Virus record (IMG/VR): IMGVR_UViG_3300025598_000044
Coordinates: 1 to 61,874 of that record
Reading direction: 5' to 3' (one strand)
Source of the DNA: a virus
Lineage: Duplodnaviria > Caudoviricetes
DNA: 61,874 nucleotides
The translations under genes were made by a program, and so were the position numbers. Below the pieces are notes generated by a model. That model was not told the origin of the DNA. It saw only the letters and a program-made list of their open reading frames with translations, and did not search any database. Shown piece by piece: positions 23,939 to 49,346 of this stretch. How positions within the stretch are numbered: position 1 is the first letter of the stretch; the number at the start of each line of letters is the position of its first letter.

Positions 23939-24527
23939 CGTCAGATTCCGTATCTTCCGTACTTTCCGTACTTCCCTCTCCCAGTTCCTCGTCCACATCG
24001 AAGTCGGCTATAGCCGTAGTGTCGAGTTCTTCGTCCTTGACCATTGTGTAATCGGTGTACATCTCCAACGTCTTACGCAGCTCGGCCTCAATATCCGACA
24101 CCGAACGATGCGTGATGTTGATGTCTACACGGTCCGAAAATGCGTTAACACCGGCTGTCTTGCCCAGCAGCTCCAGAGCCTTGAGTCGAATTTTGGGGTC
24201 TTCATCGTTACTCTCCAAAAGAAGCTTGTTTGTAACGTAGTTACGAAGCCGTCGGTGCACATCCAGCACCTCGTGGTCCCACTCATTCAATAGTGCTTCC
24301 AACGTGACGATGGCACCGGTTGTCAAGGTCTTGACAGGCGGAAACTCCTTTTCCGCCATGATTTGGTGTGCTTGCCGTCTATCGGCATCAGTAATTTCTA
24401 CTGGTTCATCAAGGACTTGCACCGTAGCAAACAGTGCGTGGGCCTTGGCACGGAAGTCCGTTAACTCTTCCGGAGTCGTGTCGAACGGCAGGGGGATACC
24501 GGACTCTGGGGTAGCGACAATGGGCAT
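23928..24527 (-). CDS. Probable terminase small subunit
   Basis: Directly upstream of and overlapping terL; RLRNYVTNKLL.E..D.KIRLKALELLGK motif. Likely start is the ATG at 24527. Confidence 0.7.
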   Translation of the reverse strand: MPIVATPESGIPLPFDTTPEELTDFRAKAHALFATVQVLDEPVEITDADRRQAHQIMAEKEFPPVKTLTTGAIVTLEALLNEWDHEVLDVHRRLRNYVTNKLLLESNDEDPKIRLKALELLGKTAGVNAFSDRVDINITHRSVSDIEAELRKTLEMYTDYTMVKDEELDTTAIADFDVDEELGEGSTESTEDTESDDGS

Positions 24528-24803
24528 TTTGCATTCGCAATGGCGAAAGAAGCTTAGAACATAACATAAAACTATTTTCAAAAATATATACCCCCCTCCC
24601 CCATCTGAAAAGAAAAAGCAAGGGGGTAGGTTCCTATAAACAAGTGGGTGGGGGGTTGGATTTTAAAGAAGCAGATCGGGTGTGCAGATTATTGAGCATG
24701 GCTGGCGCGCGGGGGGCCCGTTGTGATTTTGGGGGGTGGCCTCCTAGTGGGAGTCAAGGTGCGAACCGTGGCGAATTGCTCGGTTTCGGCTGATCGTGGT
24801 CGT

Positions 24804-24833
24804 TTTGACAATCATCGTCAAATATGGTCTTAT
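24804..24833 (+). promoter_or_regulatory. Sigma70-type early promoter overlapped by an inverted repeat
   Basis: TTGACA (24805-24810), 17-nt spacer, TG-n-TCTTAT; inverted repeat TTTGAC-N7-GTCAAA. Confidence 0.65.
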
Positions 24834-24836
24834 AGA

Positions 24837-25145
24837 TGCAAGTAACGACGTGACGTCGTCGCTAGTCGGATCCCACCCGCAAGAGGTGCAAACCCCCGGA
24901 CGGATCCGCCGGATGCTGAAGGCTAGGGCCTTGCAGCCACGTGGACCGAAAAGCGCGCAAGCGTGAGTACCGGCGAGTGTGGGCGACGTGCAAGAGCAGC
25001 CATTAGGAATACCGAAGGCGCGTAATCGCCCGTACACCACTGGCACCGTGTACGGATTGGATTGCAACCGGATACAGACCGGAACATGAAAAAGCGCATC
25101 AGCCCGTGCTGATATTGAGAAGGGCGCAATCTCGCTACCCTTCAT
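24837..25145 (+). ncRNA. Candidate multi-domain structured RNA (~310 nt)
   Basis: Nested stems, GCAA tetraloops and a GAA/AGUA loop-E-like motif; no credible ORF; lies between the promoter and the first early gene. Confidence 0.6.
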
Positions 25146-25193
25146 AATGTCAACATAGACTCATCTTTATACCAATCAATCGGAGTGCAAATC

Positions 25194-25706
25194 ATGTTTA
25201 AACTTCTCTCACAAGCCGATACCGTTAAGACCATCAAGAGCATCAAGACTCGTGCCAACAAGTTGCAAAGCGACATTCATACCTGCGCGGTCTCGACTCT
25301 CGCCCATATGCGTGACCACGGCGACTACACTCTCGCTGTATCGCTCATGAACGCTCTACCCTCGGGCCAGCGCGTGAAGGGCCTCGCTGCTTGGTACAAG
25401 AATTTTACCAATGGCAAGTTCACGCTGCGGCAGGACAAAAAGCAGGGCAACATCTGGGTCGGCGCTTTGTCGAAAGACCGCACGGCGGAGGATTTCCTCG
25501 TGGATGAAGCGTCGAAAATCACCTTCGCGGAATTCACGGCTGAGTCCGCACCGATGCAGGTCACGCCGGAGTCGATCAAGAAATACCTTGACCGCCTGAT
25601 CGCTAACGACGAGACGATTAAGGACGCGCTCGGCGAGGACCAGCCGAAGGTCACCGAGGCTGCGAAGGTTGCGGCTAAAGCTATGTTGGCCATGATTGCA
25701 GCGTGA
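25194..25706 (+). CDS. First early protein (unknown function, HGD motif)
   Basis: GGAG RBS, ATG at 25194, HMRDHGDYT..L..ALP.G.R...L.AW motif and its own terminator. Confidence 0.8.
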   Translation: MFKLLSQADTVKTIKSIKTRANKLQSDIHTCAVSTLAHMRDHGDYTLAVSLMNALPSGQRVKGLAAWYKNFTNGKFTLRQDKKQGNIWVGALSKDRTAEDFLVDEASKITFAEFTAESAPMQVTPESIKKYLDRLIANDETIKDALGEDQPKVTEAAKVAAKAMLAMIAA

Positions 25707-25723
25707 TCGTGTACTTCACTTTG

Positions 25724-25760
25724 ACCTGTAGGCTGCATTGCAGCCTACAGGTTTTTCTTT
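25724..25760 (+). terminator. Intrinsic terminator
   Basis: 13-bp perfect stem ACCTGTAGGCTGC-ATT-GCAGCCTACAGGT followed by TTTTCTTT. Confidence 0.85.
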
Positions 25761-25764
25761 CGGC

Positions 25765-26155
25765 CGTCAATACTCGCGCAAAATGCGTCGTTGAGTAGCA
25801 ATCACCTATTTTGAGTAGAGTGAGTAGCAGAGGTACTCACTCCGTTTCGTTCGCAAGTGATTGATCCGCAAGCAAGTAGTGAGGGGTCCAGTAGTAAGTA
25901 AGTAATAAGTAATTAAATTATATATATACCCCCTATTCCTCTCACAACACAGAAAAAACTTGTTGCTCTGTGTCTGTACGAGCGGCTGCGCGGGGGTGAA
26001 CGTATATTTTTGAGTTGCTACTCAAAATCGTCGAAAAACGTCTATTTATCTTTTACATTCAATGCCTTAGCGCGATTAGCCTAACTACTCACGCTACTCA
26101 GGCATTTTTTATTGTCTTACATTTCAATAACTTGGAGTGAGTAGCACTACTCACC
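25765..26155. repeat. Iteron-like GAGTAG/CTACTC repeats around an AT-rich core (candidate replication origin)
   Basis: TGAGTAG copies on the left, CTACTCA copies on the right, AT tract at ~25895-25928, and palindrome GTGAGTAG-CA-CTACTCAC at 26137-26154. Confidence 0.6.
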
Positions 26156-26193
26156 CGCCGACCGCGCGAACTATCACGCGCAAAGGATCCGCA

Positions 26194-26325
26194 ATGAAAC
26201 TTAGAGGCTGGAAAGGTTGGCTCATTGCATTGGCATATTTCTCGGCGCTCGGTGCGCCCTTTTGGTTCGCGTTGCCGGTCCTGCTAATGACCGCCGTCGT
26301 AATGGCTCATGAGGAGGAGGAGTGA
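26194..26325 (+). CDS. Small membrane protein (43 aa)
   Basis: AAGGA RBS, hydrophobic core and acidic tail. Confidence 0.55.
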   Translation: MKLRGWKGWLIALAYFSALGAPFWFALPVLLMTAVVMAHEEEE

Positions 26326-26326
26326 G

Positions 26327-26530
26327 ATGGACCGATGCAAGTGGTGCGCACAAGTCATCGCACCGTCACGTGCAAACATCGGGTACCAAACCTGCAAACC
26401 ATGTGGGGAGCGAGACGCTCGCGCCTACAAGCACACCATCGTGCCGATGCACAAGAGTAATTACATGCCGGTCACCGACCGGGAAATGCTGAAACAACTA
26501 ACCCGCCCCGGACGGGGCTTAGGAGGCTGA
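26327..26530 (+). CDS. C4 zinc-finger protein (DksA/TraR-finger-like)
   Basis: CKWC..I...R...GY.TCKPC followed by IVPMHKSNY; strong RBS. Confidence 0.7.
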   Translation: MDRCKWCAQVIAPSRANIGYQTCKPCGERDARAYKHTIVPMHKSNYMPVTDREMLKQLTRPGRGLGG

Positions 26531-43099: not shown

Positions 43100-43126
43100 A
43101 ACCCCCGCTTCGGCGGGGGTTTTTTT
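43100..43126 (+). terminator. Intrinsic terminator at the convergence of the two arms
   Basis: AACCCCCGC-TTCG-GCGGGGGTT followed by a T run that overlaps the stop of the opposing gene. Confidence 0.9.
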
Positions 43127-46100
43127 ATTCCTCTTCGTCAGGGTATGCGCTCATAATCTCAGAGCGAAGTTTCGGGCGAAGCGAAATCCCATTCACCGAC
43201 TCAGCCAACCGCTTGTAGTGGTTCAGAATGTTGGAACTCAGGTTTGCACCGGAGATGGCTGCACCGGGGTGCCGACTGTTGAACTCTTCAATGCGTTCCA
43301 GCGTTTCGTCAAACCCTTCATCATCCCCAGTCATACGGGCCAGCGCCGCTCTGGTCAGCAACGTCTTGCGGGAATTCTCAATCTTCTTTTCCATGCCCGT
43401 GCGGTTCATGTTCTCCCGCTGCATTTCCGCAAGGTCATCTGGAGCGAATCCGAGAATCTGCATGAAGGCGTTGTAGCCGTTCACATCATGCTTGAGCGGT
43501 ATTCCGTCCTTGTTGGTTGCGCCTTCCAACCCAAGCCGCACGCCTTTCATGGCGTTACTGGCAAACTTGGGTATCACATCTTCCAAACCGCGTTCAAAGT
43601 GCCCTTCAGAAAAATGATGCCACGCGTTCGGCGCGTTTTGCGTTACGAACGAATACGTCGGTCCGAGCGCCTTCTCAGCGGCAAACCCCAAGAACCCCAC
43701 ATCGTTACGTCGCTTCTCGTCATCTCTCCAAATCATATTGTCCCAACCAGTACGGTCAGCGACATTGAGATTCAAGAAGTAATTGATCGGACCTTTATAG
43801 GCCAGCGTACCTACCGACTGCTTGACCATTTCCTCCGGGTCAAACGTATCATCTCCACCCGCCACATCATTCGCTAACTTGGCAAAGAGTTCCCCCCAGC
43901 CAACCAGCGGCATCCCCTGCACGCCAGCGAACAATCCCCCCATCGCAAAGAATCCGAGAGTCTGCATGAGCGCAGCCTTTCTGACTTCGGGAGACTCTCC
44001 CTTTGTAAGATCCTTGAACGACTTGTACAACATATACTCACGGTTCAGAGCAAACTGTTTGAACGTGAGGAACAACTTGGCAATCGGGTGCTGCATCATG
44101 TTGGCACCGGCAGACGAATACGCCGATCCAAGCGTGTTGTAGACTTCCTGCTTGGCGCGTTTGTACGCTTCTTCTTGAAGCGCTTCGCCCGACAGCTTCC
44201 CAGAAAGCGCATCTTTGTGCAGCTCATACGCTGCCAGCAGCGTGGTATCGCGGTTCGCCTTGTCTGCCGTACCCAGCATCTTGTTGAAGATGGCATCGGC
44301 CCGCGCCTTGATGCCAACGTACCGAGTCGTACCGGACGTTTTGAACTCCGCAATATCCTCTGCGCGACGTTCTCCCAATACCCCATCGTCAATGCCCCGC
44401 TTGATTACATTGGCTATCTCAGGCGGGATATTCTTGCCTTCATTGAAATGATAGTTTGTTGAGTACTTACCCGCGTTCCACATTGCCTTGGCAGCGGCGT
44501 CGAAGCCACGGATACGTCCAAGCACGGGGTACACGACCGTCGGCAAGTGGGACAGCGCAACGAACGCGGTCGATACGTTCCCAGCGAGATATTGTAGGTA
44601 GTTGAAGTACTGAACGCCGCTCAGTACGGAATTGGAGTTCGGCTTCAGCATTCCCTGATGGGACTGCTCCACGTTGTCCATGAGCGCACTGGCCACATCG
44701 ACATCCAAGCCTTTCGGGTTGTCGGAATTGGTTTCATGCAGATTGGCGGCGTCCATGAGTTCCTTGCGGATGTTGCCCATCACGCCTTCAAGCTCATGGT
44801 TGTACTTCATGTTGTTAATGTGATACGCCTGCGCGGTCGCCACATTCGCGTACGACTTGACCACATCTTGTTCATAGCCCGCCGTGTTCTTACGCGTGCG
44901 GGTCATTTGCAGGGTGGACTTCGCCGGAAGCAGTTTCAGATACGAGTCCACCACGTTCTCAATGACGCTATCGCTGACCTTTGCTTTGCGCAAGGCAGTA
45001 ACTACTTCACCGAAGAACCCTGCGGGCGGGGCGCCTTTGATCATGTGCTGCAAGTTGTTGTAGCGTTCAATGTCTTTCGCGCCTTCCTGCTTTGCCTGAG
45101 CAATAGCCAACTCACGTTCGCGGGGCGTTTCAAATGACCGCTTTACGAACTCACCGCTCTTATCGGTATACGACACCCAATGATCGCCCGAACGGAACAG
45201 CGGCAGGTACACCCGCAAACGATTTGACTTCCAATTCATCACCAATCGCTGATATTGCGATGGCGTCATAATGGTGCTTAGGAACTGCAACGTAGCATTG
45301 GATTGCTCGTGATACGTTTCGCGCATCTTGCGATACACATCTTGTACATTTTCTGGAAGCGCTTTAAATTCTTTGTACAACGGGCTTGTTTTGTCGGCAA
45401 CCCATCCGCGCTTCGCGTCATCCAGAACTTCGGTCTGATCGACAGTCGTGCGGTTCATGATGTCGAACATTTTTTGTTTTTGCGCCAAAGAATACTTTTT
45501 GAATACTTCATGCGCAGCAATTACGTTGTCGGCAATAGCTTTCTGATCCTTACGCAGCGCAGCGCCTTTCTTGTTCAACACATCGTGGCGCGTGCGTAAT
45601 GACGGCACGACCTTTTCGTATTCGTTGGCGATCTGATTGACGGACATGCCGCTCAGAAGCCCACGTCGAAGAGCGGGACTTGCCGTGGACAATACTTCAC
45701 GACCGCGCTCCATCATTTCTCGCGTAGCGGAAGGCTTGGTGTCATCTTCGGAGACATACGACCGCATAAAGCGCAGATCAGCTTCACGCTGGGCTTCCGG
45801 ATTCAACTTAGTCCGAGATACTGGATCAAACACGGTGTCAATTGTGAGCGTCGCGCTACCCTGTACGCCTTCATGAGCTTGGCGAAGAATTTGAGTGATG
45901 TCGTTGTCAGAATATTTAAGATCAGACCCAAAAAATTGTTTTGCGCTACGGATCCAATCCCTAACCCATGCAGCGACGCGGTTGAATACGCCGCGCAGTC
46001 CGGATTCAGTAGTTGGACCACCCTCCGACCGTTCGGCAAGAACTTCTTCTACGGCACGTGCTTTCTGAAGATCCGTATTGAGATGCTTGTAGGTGTCGGG

Positions 46101-49100
46101 ATTGTTCTTTAGCCACTCATCCGCAGCCTTCCGCATCGACGGATTTTCGTACATCTTGTTGAGTACGCTGTCGAGATCACCCCTAAACTTTTTTTCTAGC
46201 CCGTAGTGTCCCAACGATTCATGAAATACGGTAGCTATAACGCCTTCTAATGACGGTGCATTTTCGCTGATGACGTGCACGGTCTTAGTGGCGCGATCAT
46301 AGAAGCCGGGAGTGTTGTCAGGCACTTTGTCCTGTAAATGCGCGGGAAGATCCTCCCGGCTACGCACCACATTCACGTCAGGCGCATTCTTCCAACCCTT
46401 AGTCGCTTCTTTGGCGGCAGCAACCGCATCTTCATGGGCAATCGCGCCTTTTTTTGTAGTGCCACGTTGAAACAACAGTTCATTCGGTTCGTCCGGGTTG
46501 AAGTTAAGATCAACCCCGTGTTCAGCAAGCAAGCGGTCAGCTTCAGCCTCAAGCTCATCAAGAGTTTTCTTTTGCTCTTTCTTGCGTATTTTTTCTTCTG
46601 TACGTTTGGTTTCACGTTCCGCGATTCGTTCGGCGGCTTTGTTCTGAAGCAGCTTTTCAACGCGAGCAAGATCGGGCGTCCGCTTCTTCAGTTCATCCTT
46701 AATCTCTTCATACGTCTTGAATGAAATCTTGCCATTCTCATACGCTTCAATGGCAGCGTCTCTAAACTTTCCGGCACGCTCTTGAGGGCTAGGCGCAGCC
46801 TCAGTATCCGGATGCGGCCTTCTACCAAACAGTTTTTGAATGGCCCGCAGTCGTTCTTTGGGGCCAACAAGATTAAGCACGCCACTTCGCGCTGCTTCTT
46901 CACGCAACTCTTCGGGGGATTTCTTACTCTGCGCCTCCAACCATTCTTTGGTTTTTTCGCGGCTGTAAGGTTCTCCCTGTTGGAACTGAGGCTCAAACAA
47001 AGACCGTTGATACGGAGCAGAGCCGTAATTCGGTTCGGCCAATGGTGGTTCGGCTTCAGGATGGACGTACCCACGCATTCTACCAGCGGGCATGTCCAGT
47101 TCCATTTGCGGCGATTTTTCTTCAACCGCGCGTTGTTTTTCCGGAAGCGCTTCACCCTTACCGCCAATTTCGGCGCGGATTTGTTCCATCATATCCGACA
47201 ATTGTTTTACAGGAGGTGTGGAAGCAATCTTCTCCCGTGATGGGAGCATCTTTTCTATCTGATCAAGAATCTTGGGGTCATCGTTCTTTGTGAACTTGAA
47301 CCCGTTGGTCATCTCACCAATTTTGTCGTACGTCTTATCGGTAATGAGGCCGGTTCTGTTGAAGTATCCTTCTTCCAGACGATCCATAAGCTCAAGATAA
47401 CGATCAGCCACGCTAGTAGGCTTAACAGGTTCCGGGGCTTTGAGCTTTACTGGTTTAACAGTAGGGGCAGCTTCTTTGCCGATAACATTGTTGCCTTTGT
47501 CCGTAATGCCGCGATTACGCAGATCGCCCATGAATTGCAAAGCTTTTGTACGAGTAGCGCCCGTGGCCTTTTGGATCACCGGAACCGTCGCCTTGCCTTG
47601 CGCCATGATCGCTTCAAACGCTTTATTGTACGTTTCCGAATCGAACGTCTCGCCTTCCGCAGCAGGTGCGGTGACGGCGGCGGGAGTAATCACTTCAGGT
47701 TCGGCAGGTGGGGCAGCTTTCTTTTTCTTTGCCTCACGCGCAGCTTTGGCATCATCTTTGGCTTTCTGTTTAGCGGCAATGAAGTCCTGCGCAGCCTTCT
47801 GTTTCTTCAATGCTTCCTGACGGAAGAACTCCGCTTGCGGGTCATTGAGATACGGGGGCGCTAGGTTCTCAGGAGTAGTACCTGTATAGACTCTGCCCTG
47901 CGGATCGACATGCAACGTCGCGCCAAACAAATCTCGCTGCTGATCGGATACTTCCGGGGTCGCTTCCGGCGGCGGGGCTTCCGGTTCAGGCGCACGCGAC
48001 GTGCCGCCAAAAATGTCGAACTGCGAACCTTCCGGCAATGCGGAAAGTTGTTGCTGAACCGCCGCCTTACGAGCTACATCAATTTCATTTCGGTCAGGCA
48101 GAACAGTTGATGCCGTGCCTGTTTCATCTACATATAATGAAGGTTGTTCGGGCGTCGTACCAAACAACTCCATCTGCCGTTTCGATACATACGGAGCTTC
48201 CGCAGGAGCGGCTTGTTCAGACGGAACTTCATTGAGCGCGGCACGGGGGCGTTCGCCTTCATTCACGAACGAATACTGCGCATTTTCAGGAACGACCGAA
48301 TACCGACCAGATTTGTCGTCGTAGGTCAGATAGCCTTCGTTGACGAGGCGTTCCATTTCGGCTTTGGCCGTTTTGTGGTCAAGTCCTGTGGCGTCTCTGA
48401 ATTGCTTGATGGTGGGACTCTTTTTAAGGACATCCATCACCATGTCGCGGAATAGCGATTCCTCCTTCGTAGTGCTAGGAGGCGGGGGCGGGGTAGGTTC
48501 TTGTGCCGTGGATTCACCAGTAGGTTCTTCAGGAACAAACTGATGCGCACGCGGATCGTACATAGGTTCCGCGCCAATAGTTCGACGCGCGGCATTCCCA
48601 ACTGCACGGCCCAATGTGGTAGGAGTATTGGATAGCCCGCCAAGCAGCGCTTGTTCGGCAACGTCCGTCCAGTCAATTGGCTGTCCGGTAACTCCTTGTT
48701 GGACTATATCTCCAGCAGCGCCCATGCCCGCACCGGTAAACGCCGCCTTACGAGCGGCAGCAACTTCTTCTGCCGTACCCTTGCCAAGCAACGCGGCGGT
48801 ACCCGATAGAGTCGGGCGAATCAACGCTAGGTTGGGGGCAGCTTCACCGAGACGCGCAGCAATCGGATGCGCTTTCTCTTCCGCAAGCAATGTCTCCGGG
48901 TCGATCTTGAGTCTCTTGGCAGTTTCAGGTAGCGCGTCAATTGCAGCCTGCTGTGCTTTACCAGCAAGCCATCCAGCCGGAATAGCACCCGCCAACGCAG
49001 CGAGTCCTTCGACACCGACACCCAGCAGGGGGTTGATTGCCGCCGCGCTAAGAGCCAACGGAGCCGCCGCTCCCGCCGCAAGTTCTGCGCCCGCAAACCC

Positions 49101-49346
49101 ACCCGCAGCAGGTAACGCGCCAAGTGCGGCGCGTTTGGCAAACGTAGCTCCAGCACCCGATTTAGGCGAGGCCGGTTGCGGTACGGTGCTTTCCCTGAAC
49201 TGACGATATGCGGGCCACATATCTTCTGGATTGAGCTTAGGAGCAACCACATCGTGAAAGTATTGATCACGAGCTTCTGATTGTTCTTCAGGACTAAGCG
49301 CCTGATAAGAGGCACTTGCCGCAACTTCAGGCCACGACTTAGGCAT
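43125..49346 (-). CDS. Giant internal virion (ejection) protein, polyvalent type, 2073 aa
   Basis: Last gene of the ejection cluster; GFY...FHESLGHYG..EEVLA zincin-like domain, two winged-helix-like segments and hydrophobic C-terminal helices. Confidence 0.75.
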   Translation of the reverse strand: MPKSWPEVAASASYQALSPEEQSEARDQYFHDVVAPKLNPEDMWPAYRQFRESTVPQPASPKSGAGATFAKRAALGALPAAGGFAGAELAAGAAAPLALSAAAINPLLGVGVEGLAALAGAIPAGWLAGKAQQAAIDALPETAKRLKIDPETLLAEEKAHPIAARLGEAAPNLALIRPTLSGTAALLGKGTAEEVAAARKAAFTGAGMGAAGDIVQQGVTGQPIDWTDVAEQALLGGLSNTPTTLGRAVGNAARRTIGAEPMYDPRAHQFVPEEPTGESTAQEPTPPPPPSTTKEESLFRDMVMDVLKKSPTIKQFRDATGLDHKTAKAEMERLVNEGYLTYDDKSGRYSVVPENAQYSFVNEGERPRAALNEVPSEQAAPAEAPYVSKRQMELFGTTPEQPSLYVDETGTASTVLPDRNEIDVARKAAVQQQLSALPEGSQFDIFGGTSRAPEPEAPPPEATPEVSDQQRDLFGATLHVDPQGRVYTGTTPENLAPPYLNDPQAEFFRQEALKKQKAAQDFIAAKQKAKDDAKAAREAKKKKAAPPAEPEVITPAAVTAPAAEGETFDSETYNKAFEAIMAQGKATVPVIQKATGATRTKALQFMGDLRNRGITDKGNNVIGKEAAPTVKPVKLKAPEPVKPTSVADRYLELMDRLEEGYFNRTGLITDKTYDKIGEMTNGFKFTKNDDPKILDQIEKMLPSREKIASTPPVKQLSDMMEQIRAEIGGKGEALPEKQRAVEEKSPQMELDMPAGRMRGYVHPEAEPPLAEPNYGSAPYQRSLFEPQFQQGEPYSREKTKEWLEAQSKKSPEELREEAARSGVLNLVGPKERLRAIQKLFGRRPHPDTEAAPSPQERAGKFRDAAIEAYENGKISFKTYEEIKDELKKRTPDLARVEKLLQNKAAERIAERETKRTEEKIRKKEQKKTLDELEAEADRLLAEHGVDLNFNPDEPNELLFQRGTTKKGAIAHEDAVAAAKEATKGWKNAPDVNVVRSREDLPAHLQDKVPDNTPGFYDRATKTVHVISENAPSLEGVIATVFHESLGHYGLEKKFRGDLDSVLNKMYENPSMRKAADEWLKNNPDTYKHLNTDLQKARAVEEVLAERSEGGPTTESGLRGVFNRVAAWVRDWIRSAKQFFGSDLKYSDNDITQILRQAHEGVQGSATLTIDTVFDPVSRTKLNPEAQREADLRFMRSYVSEDDTKPSATREMMERGREVLSTASPALRRGLLSGMSVNQIANEYEKVVPSLRTRHDVLNKKGAALRKDQKAIADNVIAAHEVFKKYSLAQKQKMFDIMNRTTVDQTEVLDDAKRGWVADKTSPLYKEFKALPENVQDVYRKMRETYHEQSNATLQFLSTIMTPSQYQRLVMNWKSNRLRVYLPLFRSGDHWVSYTDKSGEFVKRSFETPRERELAIAQAKQEGAKDIERYNNLQHMIKGAPPAGFFGEVVTALRKAKVSDSVIENVVDSYLKLLPAKSTLQMTRTRKNTAGYEQDVVKSYANVATAQAYHINNMKYNHELEGVMGNIRKELMDAANLHETNSDNPKGLDVDVASALMDNVEQSHQGMLKPNSNSVLSGVQYFNYLQYLAGNVSTAFVALSHLPTVVYPVLGRIRGFDAAAKAMWNAGKYSTNYHFNEGKNIPPEIANVIKRGIDDGVLGERRAEDIAEFKTSGTTRYVGIKARADAIFNKMLGTADKANRDTTLLAAYELHKDALSGKLSGEALQEEAYKRAKQEVYNTLGSAYSSAGANMMQHPIAKLFLTFKQFALNREYMLYKSFKDLTKGESPEVRKAALMQTLGFFAMGGLFAGVQGMPLVGWGELFAKLANDVAGGDDTFDPEEMVKQSVGTLAYKGPINYFLNLNVADRTGWDNMIWRDDEKRRNDVGFLGFAAEKALGPTYSFVTQNAPNAWHHFSEGHFERGLEDVIPKFASNAMKGVRLGLEGATNKDGIPLKHDVNGYNAFMQILGFAPDDLAEMQRENMNRTGMEKKIENSRKTLLTRAALARMTGDDEGFDETLERIEEFNSRHPGAAISGANLSSNILNHYKRLAESVNGISLRPKLRSEIMSAYPDEEE

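What the first reader, a model, noticed from the sequence alone, without database searches (positions are those of the whole stretch)
24837..25760. ~310-nt multi-domain structured RNA co-transcribed with the first early gene
Seen: directly after the promoter, domain 1 is closed by UGCAAG/CUUGCA (24837-42/24930-35). It contains ACGACG/CGUCGU, CUAGUC/GGCUAG, CGGAUCC/GGAUCCG and a CACC-C-GCAA-G-A-GGUG hairpin. Domain 2 is closed by CACGU/ACGUG (24938-42/24986-90) and has GCGC-GCAA-GCGU flanked by GAA and AGUA (loop-E-like). Further stems are CCGUACAC/GUGUACGG, AUCAGC/GCUGAU and GAAGGG/CCCUUC. One 170-aa gene and a strong terminator follow. Known: GNRA loops and loop-E motifs mark tertiary-folded RNAs. 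Inference: an undescribed immediate-early ncRNA or RNA-protein module (anti-defence decoy, antiterminator or ribozyme). I cannot match it to a named family.
Basis: partly seen in the sequence, partly recalled or inferred. Interest (0 to 1): 0.82.

Follow-up and report, generated by a model that had tools for sequence, protein, structure and literature searches.

The report
Structured leader RNA of phage early gene
The stretch is the long, folded, non-coding start of the first early messenger RNA of an uncultured freshwater phage; parts of its fold are kept by selection in a close relative, it matches no named RNA family, and what it does is still unknown.

Summary
The window is a 98%-complete, 61.9-kb freshwater virus record. 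Its rightward gene block opens with one cassette: a sigma-70-like promoter (24805-24833), about 350 nt without a conserved reading frame, a 170-aa gene (25194-25706, phrog_1448, no known function) and a strong terminator (25723-25753).

Only some are supported by relatives.

- Supported: ACGACG/CGUCGU, CGGAUCC/GGAUCCG, CCGUACAC/GUGUACGG and GAAGGG/CCCUUC. The last extends to a 15-pair hairpin.
- Not supported: UGCAAG/CUUGCA, CUAGUC/GGCUAG and the CACC..GGUG hairpin.

The only alignable relative encodes a protein 84% identical.
- The 3' 144 nt of the leader are 78% identical, against 61% at fourfold-degenerate codon sites.
- All 37 predicted pairs are kept in both sequences, and 5 pairs changed on both sides.

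Three more distant relatives share a three-tier stem-loop module. A further clade has long leaders of its own, with a strongly covarying hairpin.

Rfam gives no family. I found no RNA sequencing runs, and no test separated the candidate functions.

My reading is a real, selected, cis-acting structured 5' leader of a new sequence family. A decoy, antiterminator or ribozyme role is not shown.

The parts
24805..24833 (+). Sigma-70-like promoter: -35 TTGACA 24805-24810, TG 24825-24826, -10 TCTTAT 24828-24833. The start is predicted near 24840.
   Evidence: Read. The same TTGACA(ATC) box, 17-nt spacer and TGn plus hexamer are in L001, L003 and L004. It is not in the 645 nt held upstream of the gene in L008. 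The consensus scan did not list it because the -10 lacks A at position 2. The start site is inferred.
24845..24859 (+). H1: a hairpin at the 5' end, ACGACG-UGA-CGUCGU. As DNA it is a 15-bp palindrome.
   Evidence: A-U becomes C-G in L001, the other 5 pairs are invariant. The first 32 nt of the leader are 87.5% identical to L001. There are no extra copies in the window beyond chance: 35 matches at up to 3 mismatches against 28.7 expected.
24867..24908 (+). H2: a three-tier stem-loop module. Outer stem 24867-73/24902-08, 3-pair stem CCG 24877-79 / CGG 24897-99, apical GGU-GCAA-ACC 24885-94.
   Evidence: The MFE of the isolated module gives the same three-tier architecture in 5 of 5 leaders (win, L001, L003, L004, L008). 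All proposed pairs are canonical and the stems carry different letters; the 3-pair stem is CCG/CGG in three, UGG/CCA in one and AGG/CCU in one. MAFFT did not put L003 and L008 in register, so there is no tool count of covariation.
24912..25011 (+). Variable middle domain.
   Evidence: It cannot be aligned with L001 by blastn. The helices there are predictions on a single sequence.
25018..25097 (+). Conserved three-way-junction domain: P1 GCGC 25018-21 / GCGC 25094-97; P2 GUAAUC 25022-27 / GAUUGC 25060-65; P2a CCGUACAC 25030-37 / GUGUACGG 25048-55; P3 CCGG 25068-71 / CCGG 25079-82.
   Evidence: RNAalifold on win plus L001. All 22 pairs are kept in both sequences, and 4 pairs of P2a changed on both sides. 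P1, P2 and P3 never vary apart from one U-A to U-G change, so they are untested. A local alternative, GGCG-CGUAAU-CGCC, cannot be excluded.
25098..25113 (+). H8: a weak hairpin, AUCAGC-CCGU-GCUGAU.
   Evidence: Single-sequence MFE. L001 has only AUUG/CAAU there (by eye). It shares 3 nt with H9 and is not in the consensus structure.
25111..25151 (+). H9: a 15-pair hairpin (GAUAUUG-A-GAAGGG ... CCCUUC-A-UAAUGUC) that ends 21 nt before the ribosome-binding site.
   Evidence: All 15 pairs are kept in both sequences and 1 changed on both sides; A.A in the window becomes G-C in L001. Two G.U pairs make it specific to the + strand. A contig of a third variant differs at only 4 of 104 positions over 25088-25191, against 65 of 460 in the gene (record 7).
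25173..25706 (+). Ribosome-binding site GGAG 25173-76 and the 170-aa gene 25194-25706 (phrog_1448).
   Evidence: Pfam and NCBIfam gave no hit. phrog_1448 scored E 3.1e-23. The AlphaFold model has pLDDT 91 with no clear fold match.
25723..25763 (+). Intrinsic terminator that closes the one-gene unit.
   Evidence: 14-pair stem, 8 of them G-C, followed by TTTTCTTTCGG. A strong hairpin follows the stop codon in 17 of 17 related loci examined; several in the distant clade have no T run.

Best explanation
This is the 5' untranslated leader of a one-gene early transcription unit read by the host polymerase: promoter 24805-24833, leader about 24840-25193, gene 25194-25706, terminator 25723-25753.

The leader is a selected, multi-hairpin RNA that acts in cis on its own messenger. 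Its parts are:
- a hairpin a few nucleotides from the 5' end (H1);
- a three-tier stem-loop module (H2);
- a fast-evolving middle part;
- a conserved three-way-junction domain;
- a 15-pair hairpin about 20 nt before the ribosome-binding site (H9).

Inferred mechanism. The terminal hairpin and the compact fold protect a long untranslated stretch from 5'-end-dependent decay and from premature Rho termination. The conserved 3' domain and the long hairpin set the processing or translation of the first early gene, either as a double-strand RNase site or as a binding platform for a protein.

Shown: the anatomy, the conservation above the neutral level, the pair-preserving changes, and the absence of coding constraint or a known family. 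Inferred: the start site, early timing, and every functional step.
For: - Anatomy.
- The promoter box is conserved in 4 of 5 close leaders.
- No terminator-like site lies on the + strand between 24837 and 25193, so RNA and gene are one transcript if the promoter fires.
- Folding z is -2.08, with 4 of 100 shuffles as good. Of the 14 related leaders computed, 12 have z of -2 or lower on the + strand.
- Against L001, the leader's 3' 144 nt are 77.8% identical and its first 32 nt 87.5%. The gene's third codon positions are 57% identical and its fourfold sites 42 of 69, or 61%.
- In the 3' domain 74 of 74 pair cells are canonical and 5 pairs changed on both sides. Controls with partners slid by 1-3 columns gave 30-39% paired and 0 such pairs.
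- Gaps of 1, 3, 1 and 2 nt exclude a conserved reading frame.
- G.U pairs in P2 and H9 favour the + strand. Model R1 scores 176 bits on + and only 16 bits for the hairpin on -.
- A third variant is 96% identical over 25088-25191 but 86% in the gene.
- The H2 module architecture recurs in 5 of 5 close leaders.
- Long upstream leaders occur across the wider clade. A hairpin there has 14 of 16 pairs changed on both sides, and 0 of 500 shuffles reach its covariation score.
Against: - No transcript, start site or processing data. No RNA run is listed.
- Only two distinct sequences can be aligned, so the covariation rests on one comparison. In control (a), 21 of 500 shuffles equalled the observed values.
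- The four paired changes in P2a could come from one templated event in a quasi-palindrome rather than from four selected substitutions.
- P1, P2 and P3 of the junction never vary, so they are untested.
- Two of the five close leaders (L003, L004) fold no better than shuffles, z about -0.6.
- Predicted pairing of the ribosome-binding site and start codon with the leader is no stronger than with shuffled leaders: 18, 3, 33, 23 and 24 of 60 shuffles were at least as high. Simple occlusion is therefore not supported.
- No partner protein, ligand or nuclease site was shown.
Confidence: 0.5

Rival explanations
1. Autoregulatory RNA and DNA platform, as in acr-aca operons. The encoded 170-aa protein (or, in relatives, the small basic protein) binds the palindrome or hairpin just after the start site, and perhaps the conserved 3' domain, to shut off its own strong early expression.
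For: H1 is a 15-bp palindrome about 5 nt after the predicted start, and it keeps its symmetry in L001. The model of the protein has three helices followed by a beta hairpin, and its best Foldseek rows are MarR/SarA-type regulators. Aca1 and Aca2 helix-turn-helix proteins bind hairpins that start directly after the start site in acr-aca 5' UTRs (PMC13551039, passages read).
Against: The fold matches are weak: Foldseek E 0.4 or more, probability 0.47 or less; VIA best Z 5.8 to unrelated proteins. Pfam and NCBIfam give no DNA-binding domain. The palindrome has no second copy. L003 and L004 show no comparable palindrome after their promoters (by eye). A 300-nt RNA is far more than such an operator needs.
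Confidence: 0.12
2. A stable non-coding RNA in its own right. It would be cut from the leader at or near H9 and act in trans as a sponge or decoy for a host protein or defence system.
For: There is a multi-domain fold with GNRA and UNCG tetraloops. The loops and junction strands of the 3' domain are more conserved than the stems. A long hairpin suited to a double-strand RNase lies between the RNA and the ribosome-binding site. In L003, L004 and L008 the structured part lies between two genes rather than at the 5' end.
Against: It has no terminator or 3' end of its own. No RNA data exist. The sequence family is tiny and evolves fast: model R1 finds only win and L001 among 22 sources, and also with filters off on 10 loci. 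No repeated binding motif rises above what C-GCAA-G tetraloops explain.
Confidence: 0.13
3. A riboswitch-like sensor. The conserved three-way junction binds a host metabolite or ion and tunes expression of the first early gene.
For: The junction strands and the AUACNGA loop are invariant, while the P2a stem varies with compensation. The domain is followed by a hairpin close to the ribosome-binding site.
Against: No known riboswitch class scores, even at E up to 10. There is no terminator or anti-terminator pair. Pairing with the translation start is not above chance. The domain is not found in L003, L004, L008 or the distant clade, which is unlike ligand-binding cores.
Confidence: 0.06
4. A processive antiterminator RNA, put-like. 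It would modify the polymerase that made it so that transcription reads through the terminator at 25723 into the downstream early genes.
For: Structured RNA lies directly after an early promoter, and a strong terminator separates gene 1 from the remaining rightward genes. The consensus scan found no promoter on the + strand between 25760 and 26140.
Against: The same scan also missed the promoter at 24805, so its silence means little. The AT-rich stretch 25900-26130, flanked by GAGTAG boxes, could hold a regulated promoter (by eye). I found no boxA/boxB-like element. The structured parts are not conserved across relatives that all keep the hairpin after the gene.
Confidence: 0.05
5. A DNA-level element (operators, origin, packaging signal), or hairpins without function in a GC-rich spacer.
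For: The region lies at the junction of the leftward terminase genes and the rightward early genes, beside other conserved DNA elements (24675-24740) and repeated GAGTAG boxes. As DNA, the inverted repeats could be maintained by templated mutation. L003 and L004 fold no better than shuffles.
Against: The G.U pairs and the strand asymmetry of the model score point to RNA on the + strand. The 3' half is conserved well above synonymous sites. Relatives by terminase that lack the gene also lack the leader, yet keep the upstream DNA element.
Confidence: 0.1

Closest known systems
Leader of the lambda N gene (nutL plus an RNase III-sensitive hairpin before the N start). Recalled, not tested here.
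   Same: A long (about 200 nt) structured leader between an immediate-early host-type promoter and the first early gene, with a long hairpin shortly before the ribosome-binding site and a terminator after the gene.
   Different: No boxA/boxB-like element was seen. The encoded protein is not N-like (170 aa; no arginine-rich motif noted). The leader here is about 350 nt with a three-way junction. No antitermination is shown.
T7-group early leader with the R0.3 RNase III site. Recalled, not tested here.
   Same: Several hundred untranslated nucleotides between host-type early promoters and the first early gene, ending in a long imperfect hairpin. Relatives of the gene (phrog_1448) lie near one end of the record in many of the listed 40-46-kb phage genomes, e.g. 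positions 536-940 and 1343-1750.
   Different: The T7 leader is long mainly because it carries three tandem promoters. Here no further promoter was found, and the RNA itself is conserved and compensated.
Aca1/Aca2-bound RNA hairpins in acr-aca 5' UTRs (PMC13551039, passages read)
   Same: A strong early promoter, a hairpin starting directly after the start site, and a small operon closed by a regulator-sized protein. Relatives carry a small upstream ORF plus the 170-aa gene.
   Different: Those motifs are hairpins of about 20 nt within 100 nt of the start codon. Here the RNA is about 315 nt with several domains. The protein has no recognised HTH family. No inverted repeat overlapping the promoter was seen.
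HK022 put RNA. Recalled, not tested here.
   Same: A structured RNA made immediately after an early promoter, upstream of terminators.
   Different: put is about 70 nt with two stem-loops. No homology or functional evidence here.
Rfam RF01678 (Pseudomonas sRNA P37), the best sub-threshold match inside the leader
   Same: Two adjacent hairpins at 24846-24911 align to the model.
   Different: 18.7 bits against a gathering score of 50, E 1.2. This is a chance-level match, not membership.

Membership tests
Any Rfam 15 family (4227 models) | Score at or above the family's gathering threshold | tested here: not met
   0 matches over the whole window. In the sensitive mode on 24560-26020 there were 4 matches, all far below threshold. 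In 20 related loci the only match was a tRNA elsewhere in L010.
Known self-cleaving ribozymes and riboswitch classes (as held in Rfam) | A conserved catalytic or ligand-binding core detectable by its covariance model | tested here: not met
   No such model appears at E up to 10 on 24560-26020.
Aca-type 5'-UTR RNA motif (acr-aca operons) | A hairpin starting directly downstream of the transcription start | tested here: inconclusive
   H1 at 24845-24859 lies about 5 nt after the predicted start and keeps its pairing in L001. The start site is only predicted.
Aca-type 5'-UTR RNA motif (acr-aca operons) | The operon encodes a recognised Aca (HTH or RHH) regulator and an anti-defence gene | tested here: not met
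   The 170-aa protein has no Pfam or NCBIfam family. Fold matches to MarR-type proteins are weak, E 0.4 or more. The window has no second gene in the unit.
Aca-type 5'-UTR RNA motif (acr-aca operons) | An inverted-repeat DNA operator overlapping the promoter | tested here: not met
   The repeat finder on 24400-26400 lists no inverted repeat in 24800-24840.
Lambda-type nut site (N-dependent antitermination) | A boxA sequence followed by a boxB hairpin with a GNRA-like pentaloop, and an N-like arginine-rich protein | not tested
   I only looked by eye and saw no convincing boxA/boxB. The motif definitions are recalled, and no model was available.
RNase III processing site of phage early mRNAs | About two turns of imperfect double helix between genes or before the first gene, cleaved by RNase III | not testable with these tools
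   H9 has 15 pairs with one 1x1 internal loop. Cleavage cannot be assessed in silico.
New leader family defined here (model R1, 25012-25158) | A match to the covariance model built from the window and L001 | tested here: met
   Window 176 bits and L001 173 bits, both by construction. There was no other match in the leader position among 22 sources, nor with filters off on 10 loci. Exact-motif scans of the viral collection found only the two L001-type contigs.

The most novel reading that the evidence does not exclude
The leader is a member of a so far undescribed class of large, tertiary-folded RNAs that head the early gene block (by its position) of a widespread lineage of roughly 60-kb podophages. 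These phages occur in freshwater and soil and are related by terminase to the HTVC023P/027P-type pelagiphages. In this reading the RNA acts beyond its own messenger, as a protein sponge or decoy, a sensor, or a polymerase-modifying RNA. The three-tier module and the three-way junction would be its functional cores.
Probability: 0.15. Interest if true: 0.75.

Novelty: new variant of a known kind. Interest (0 to 1): 0.42.

Why it matters
Structured leaders of phage early messengers, such as the lambda N leader, the T7 R0.3 region and the acr-aca 5' UTRs, are where phages time their takeover genes.

This one is unusually long and has several domains. It has no named family. It belongs to an abundant lineage of environmental phages, most of them known only from metagenomes, whose early biology is largely unknown. 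Relatives show that long structured leaders are a recurring trait of this cassette.

If the RNA turns out to bind a protein or a ligand, it would give a handle on early gene control in these phages and a new RNA motif. If it is only a stabilising leader, it is an ordinary feature that has now been documented.

Tried and rejected
**Searches that found nothing more**
- Rfam: no family.
- blastn of 24580-25760 against 50,697 phage records: no match.
- Relatives fetched through the protein: viral, metagenome and genome collections. Only the L001-type contigs (L001 = L002 = L006 = L007 in the leader) align with the window's leader.
- Relatives fetched through the large terminase: of 80 loci, only 1 (the contig of L003) carries the gene.
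- An nhmmer profile of the distant clade's leaders against the five close leaders: no hit.
- Covariance model R1 and exact-motif scans: nothing beyond the window and L001.
- The search of earlier findings: only notes on this same window.

**Sequencing runs**
- No RNA holder is listed.
- Contigs of 4 DNA runs were laid. They gave one useful variant (record 7) and otherwise nothing for the structure.

**Tests with a negative or empty result**
- Sequestration of the ribosome-binding site and start codon by the leader looked striking in partition-function folds. It is no stronger than with shuffled leaders, so I rejected it.
- The small basic ORF found in relatives has no counterpart in the window (tblastn).
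- H1 has no extra copies beyond chance.
- The - strand ORF 24744-25145 is rejected as coding, because the gaps against L001 break the frame.

**The 170-aa protein and the small ORF**
- AlphaFold model, pLDDT 91.
- Foldseek against PDB: best E 0.41. VIA wide: best Z 5.8. The Atlas returned only unnamed viral clusters. No function could be assigned.
- Pfam and NCBIfam on the small ORF: nothing above threshold.

**Alignment limits**
- MAFFT could not put the H2 module of L003 and L008 in register. Its covariation was therefore checked only by a coordinate-based script.
- The alignment of the whole leader reports 16 pairs changed on both sides. Those in the unalignable middle part are not trustworthy, and I do not count them.

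**Literature**
- Search 'HTVC027P': 12 papers. In PMC12753301 I read two passages found by term; it has no occurrence of intergenic, non-coding, promoter or untranslated.
- Search bacteriophage / early promoter / untranslated region / structured RNA / covariation: 15 papers. I read passages of PMC13551039.
- I found no description of this RNA in these two searches. Supplements were not opened.
Full report
**Context**

The window is a whole virus record of 61,874 bases, rated 98% complete, from freshwater metagenomes. Genes for portal, large terminase and a small-terminase-like protein run leftward and end at 24581. From 25194 to about 43000, genes for an ATPase, DNA polymerase, helicase and primase run rightward. 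By large terminase, the nearest named phages are roughly 57-65-kb phages such as Phage DSL-LC04, Pelagibacter phages HTVC027P and HTVC023P, and Planktothrix phage Pag-Yong1, at 49-59% identity. The finding lies at the head of the rightward block.

**Anatomy**

- TTGACA at 24805-24810, a 17-nt spacer ending in TGg, then TCTTAT at 24828-24833.
- About 350 nt without a conserved reading frame.
- GGAG at 25173-25176 and ATG at 25194, opening a 170-aa ORF that ends at 25706.
- A 14-pair hairpin at 25723-25753, followed by a T run.

The consensus scan did not list the promoter because its -10 lacks A at position 2. I infer the promoter from conservation. The same TTGACAATC box (TTTACAATC in L004), the same spacing and a TGn before the hexamer are present in L001, L003 and L004. 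It is absent from the 645 nt held upstream of the gene in L008. A start near 24840 follows from that and is an inference. No terminator-like site lies on the + strand between 24837 and 25193, so the structured stretch and the gene would be one transcript.

**The observation**

The stretch folds better than dinucleotide shuffles, but not dramatically: z = -2.08, with 4 of 100 shuffles as good. For 24838-25155, z = -2.97 on the + strand and -1.85 on the - strand with 40 shuffles.

**Relatives**

The 170-aa protein belongs to phrog_1448, of unknown function, and has no Pfam or NCBIfam family. tblastn finds it at under 60% identity in 448 phage records. In many of the listed 40-46-kb genomes it lies near one end. 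Loci fetched through the protein fall into two sets.

- The close set has protein identity of 54-84%: the window, L001 (identical in the leader to L002, L006 and L007), L003, L004 and L008.
- The distant set has 32-50% identity, is largely from soil-type metagenomes, and includes a 60.8-kb contig binned with an Acidobacteriaceae MAG.

Of 80 loci fetched through the terminase, only one (the contig of L003) has the gene. Those without the gene also lack the leader, for example L043.

**Conservation and pair-preserving change**

Only the L001 type aligns with the window's leader. The first 32 nt are 87.5% identical and the last 144 nt (25015-25155) are 77.8% identical. The roughly 150 nt in between do not align. 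For comparison, the gene is 78.9% identical overall, 57% at third codon positions and 42 of 69 (61%) at fourfold-degenerate sites. The two ends of the leader are therefore more conserved than neutral sites, and the middle is not.

The gaps in the 3' part are 1, 3, 1 and 2 nt, so a reading frame is not what is being conserved. The consensus fold of the 3' part has 37 pairs.
- All 74 pair cells are canonical.
- Five pairs changed on both sides: four in CCGUACAC/GUGUACGG and one in GAAGGG/CCCUUC. One pair changed on one side, U-A to U-G.
- With partners slid by 1-3 columns, only 30-39% of cells pair and no pair changes on both sides.
- With two sequences the shuffle control is weak: 21 of 500 shuffles equal the observed values.

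H1 shows one further change on both sides, A-U to C-G. A contig of a third variant differs at 4 of 104 positions over 25088-25191 but at 65 of 460 positions in the gene. G.U pairs in P2 and H9, and the model score (176 bits on +; only 16 bits for the hairpin alone on -), assign the fold to the sense RNA.

**Resulting structure**

- H1: 24845-24859.
- H2: 24867-24908, a three-tier module.
- A variable middle part: 24912-25011.
- A three-way junction, 25018-25097: P1 GCGC/GCGC; P2 GUAAUC/GAUUGC carrying P2a; P3 CCGG-AUACAGA-CCGG.
- H8: a weak hairpin.
- H9: 25111-25151.

P1, P2 and P3 never vary, so they are neither supported nor contradicted.

The alternative recurs in all five close leaders. 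The MFE of the isolated module gives an outer stem, a 3-pair stem and an apical tetraloop hairpin in 5 of 5, with different letters. The 3-pair stem is CCG/CGG in three, UGG/CCA in one and AGG/CCU in one, and the apical stems run from 3 to 7 pairs. In L003, L004 and L008 the module is the first element after a small upstream ORF. In the window and L001 it follows H1.

The helix said to close domain 1 (UGCAAG/CUUGCA) has no partner in L001, and its 5' arm would lie largely upstream of the predicted start. CUAGUC/GGCUAG has no equivalent in L001. Domain 2 cannot be judged.

**The wider picture**

Beyond L001 the RNA is not recognisable by sequence or by model R1. It evolves fast.

Long upstream leaders are nevertheless a trait of this cassette. 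Several distant-set loci have 580-1030 nt upstream of the gene without an ORF of 70 aa or more, with conserved blocks. Of the 14 leaders computed, 12 have z of -2 or lower on the + strand.

The distant set carries a conserved ORF of about 58-66 aa for a small basic protein just before the gene. L003, L004 and L008 carry a homologue directly after the promoter. The window and L001 have none.

In the distant set a long hairpin abuts the ribosome-binding site of that small ORF. Of its 16 pairs, 14 changed on both sides. Its covariation score is 0.505 against 0.196 in shuffles (0 of 500 reach it) and at most 0.142 when slid. I did not analyse the rest of those leaders.

A strong hairpin follows the stop codon of the gene in 17 of 17 loci examined.

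**What it is not, as far as tested**

- No Rfam family, ribozyme or riboswitch model.
- No match in cultured phage records.
- Not a conserved coding region.
- Pairing of the translation start with the leader is not above chance.
- No repeated operator.
- The protein gives no functional clue. Its model is confident (pLDDT 91), with three helices and a beta hairpin in the N-terminal two thirds. The best matches are weak: Foldseek E 0.41 to MarR-type regulators, and VIA Z 5.8 or less to unrelated proteins.

**Mechanism**

I commit, at about 0.5, to a cis-acting leader. A hairpin near the 5' end and a compact fold protect a long untranslated stretch. A conserved 3' domain and a 15-pair hairpin about 20 nt before the ribosome-binding site govern processing or translation of the first early gene. 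These functional steps are inferred by analogy with the lambda N leader and the T7 R0.3 region, both recalled, and with the Aca-bound 5' UTR hairpins (PMC13551039, passages read). None of them is shown here.

The rivals are:
- an Aca-like autoregulatory platform (0.12);
- a processed trans-acting RNA (0.13);
- a ligand sensor (0.06);
- a put-like antiterminator (0.05);
- a DNA-level or functionless element (0.10).

**Novelty and verdict**

The RNA is real enough to name as a candidate new leader family, but the family currently holds two distinct sequences. It is of a known kind, the structured leader of a phage early mRNA. It differs from described examples in length, in its modular fold and in having no named family. 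I score it 0.42.

**Limits**

- One pairwise comparison carries most of the covariation.
- The changes in P2a may be a single templated event.
- The start site and the early timing are inferred.
- The tool that could have supplied a dozen closer relatives was closed.
- Supplements of the papers were not seen.

Noticed in passing
window 24675-24740 (core 24679-24697): A DNA element upstream of the promoter is better conserved than the leader. A 22-nt core containing TGTGCAGATTATTGAGC is 95% identical in the window, L001 and L003, and a variant is in L004. It is followed by CGCGCG(A/G)GGG and G runs. TGTGCAGAT also lies upstream of the terminase genes in L038, L043 and L044, which lack the gene and the leader. 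Its function is unknown: a packaging site, an origin or a regulator site are possibilities.
   Followed up: partly
window 24584-24595 and 25922-25933: An exact 12-nt direct repeat, ATATATACCCCC, flanks the whole cassette. On the - strand each copy forms the -10 part of a promoter-like site. TATATACCCC occurs upstream of the terminase genes in 18 of 80 terminase-related loci. This may be the leftward promoter of the leftward (structural) genes, duplicated around an inserted cassette.
   Followed up: partly
L014 1680-1853, L004 2494-2637, L003 and L008 upstream regions, and 13 more loci: A conserved small basic ORF of 48-69 aa with the core motif R-x-F/Y-A ... (D/E/Q/A)(R/K/Q)(I/V). It sits between the leader and the phrog_1448 gene in the distant clade, and directly after the promoter in L003, L004 and L008. 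It is absent from the window and L001. No family was found.
   Followed up: partly
window 25790-26151; L001, L003 and L008 just after their terminators: (T)GAGTAGCA boxes follow the terminator in the window and also in L001, L003 and L008. The window also has inverted copies and an 18-nt palindrome at 26134-26151 around an AT-rich stretch.
   Followed up: partly
L015 330-433 and ten other distant-clade loci (alignment A6): A long hairpin abutting the ribosome-binding site of the small ORF shows strong covariation: 14 of 16 pairs changed on both sides, and 0 of 500 shuffles reach the score. The 300 nt upstream of it have conserved blocks that I did not analyse.
   Followed up: partly
window 25087-25113: A mini-ORF of 8 codons (AUG in the window; GUG and 9 codons in L001) overlaps the conserved junction strand and H8. 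It has only a weak ribosome-binding site. It is probably a by-product of the conserved RNA sequence.
   Followed up: no
window 43125-49343 (- strand): A 2072-aa protein whose C-terminal third matches a PHROG annotated as DarB-like antirestriction, E 2.9e-49.
   Followed up: no
L010 1317-1386 (- strand): A tRNA gene in the related 60.8-kb contig, about 1.1 kb upstream of its phrog_1448 gene.
   Followed up: no
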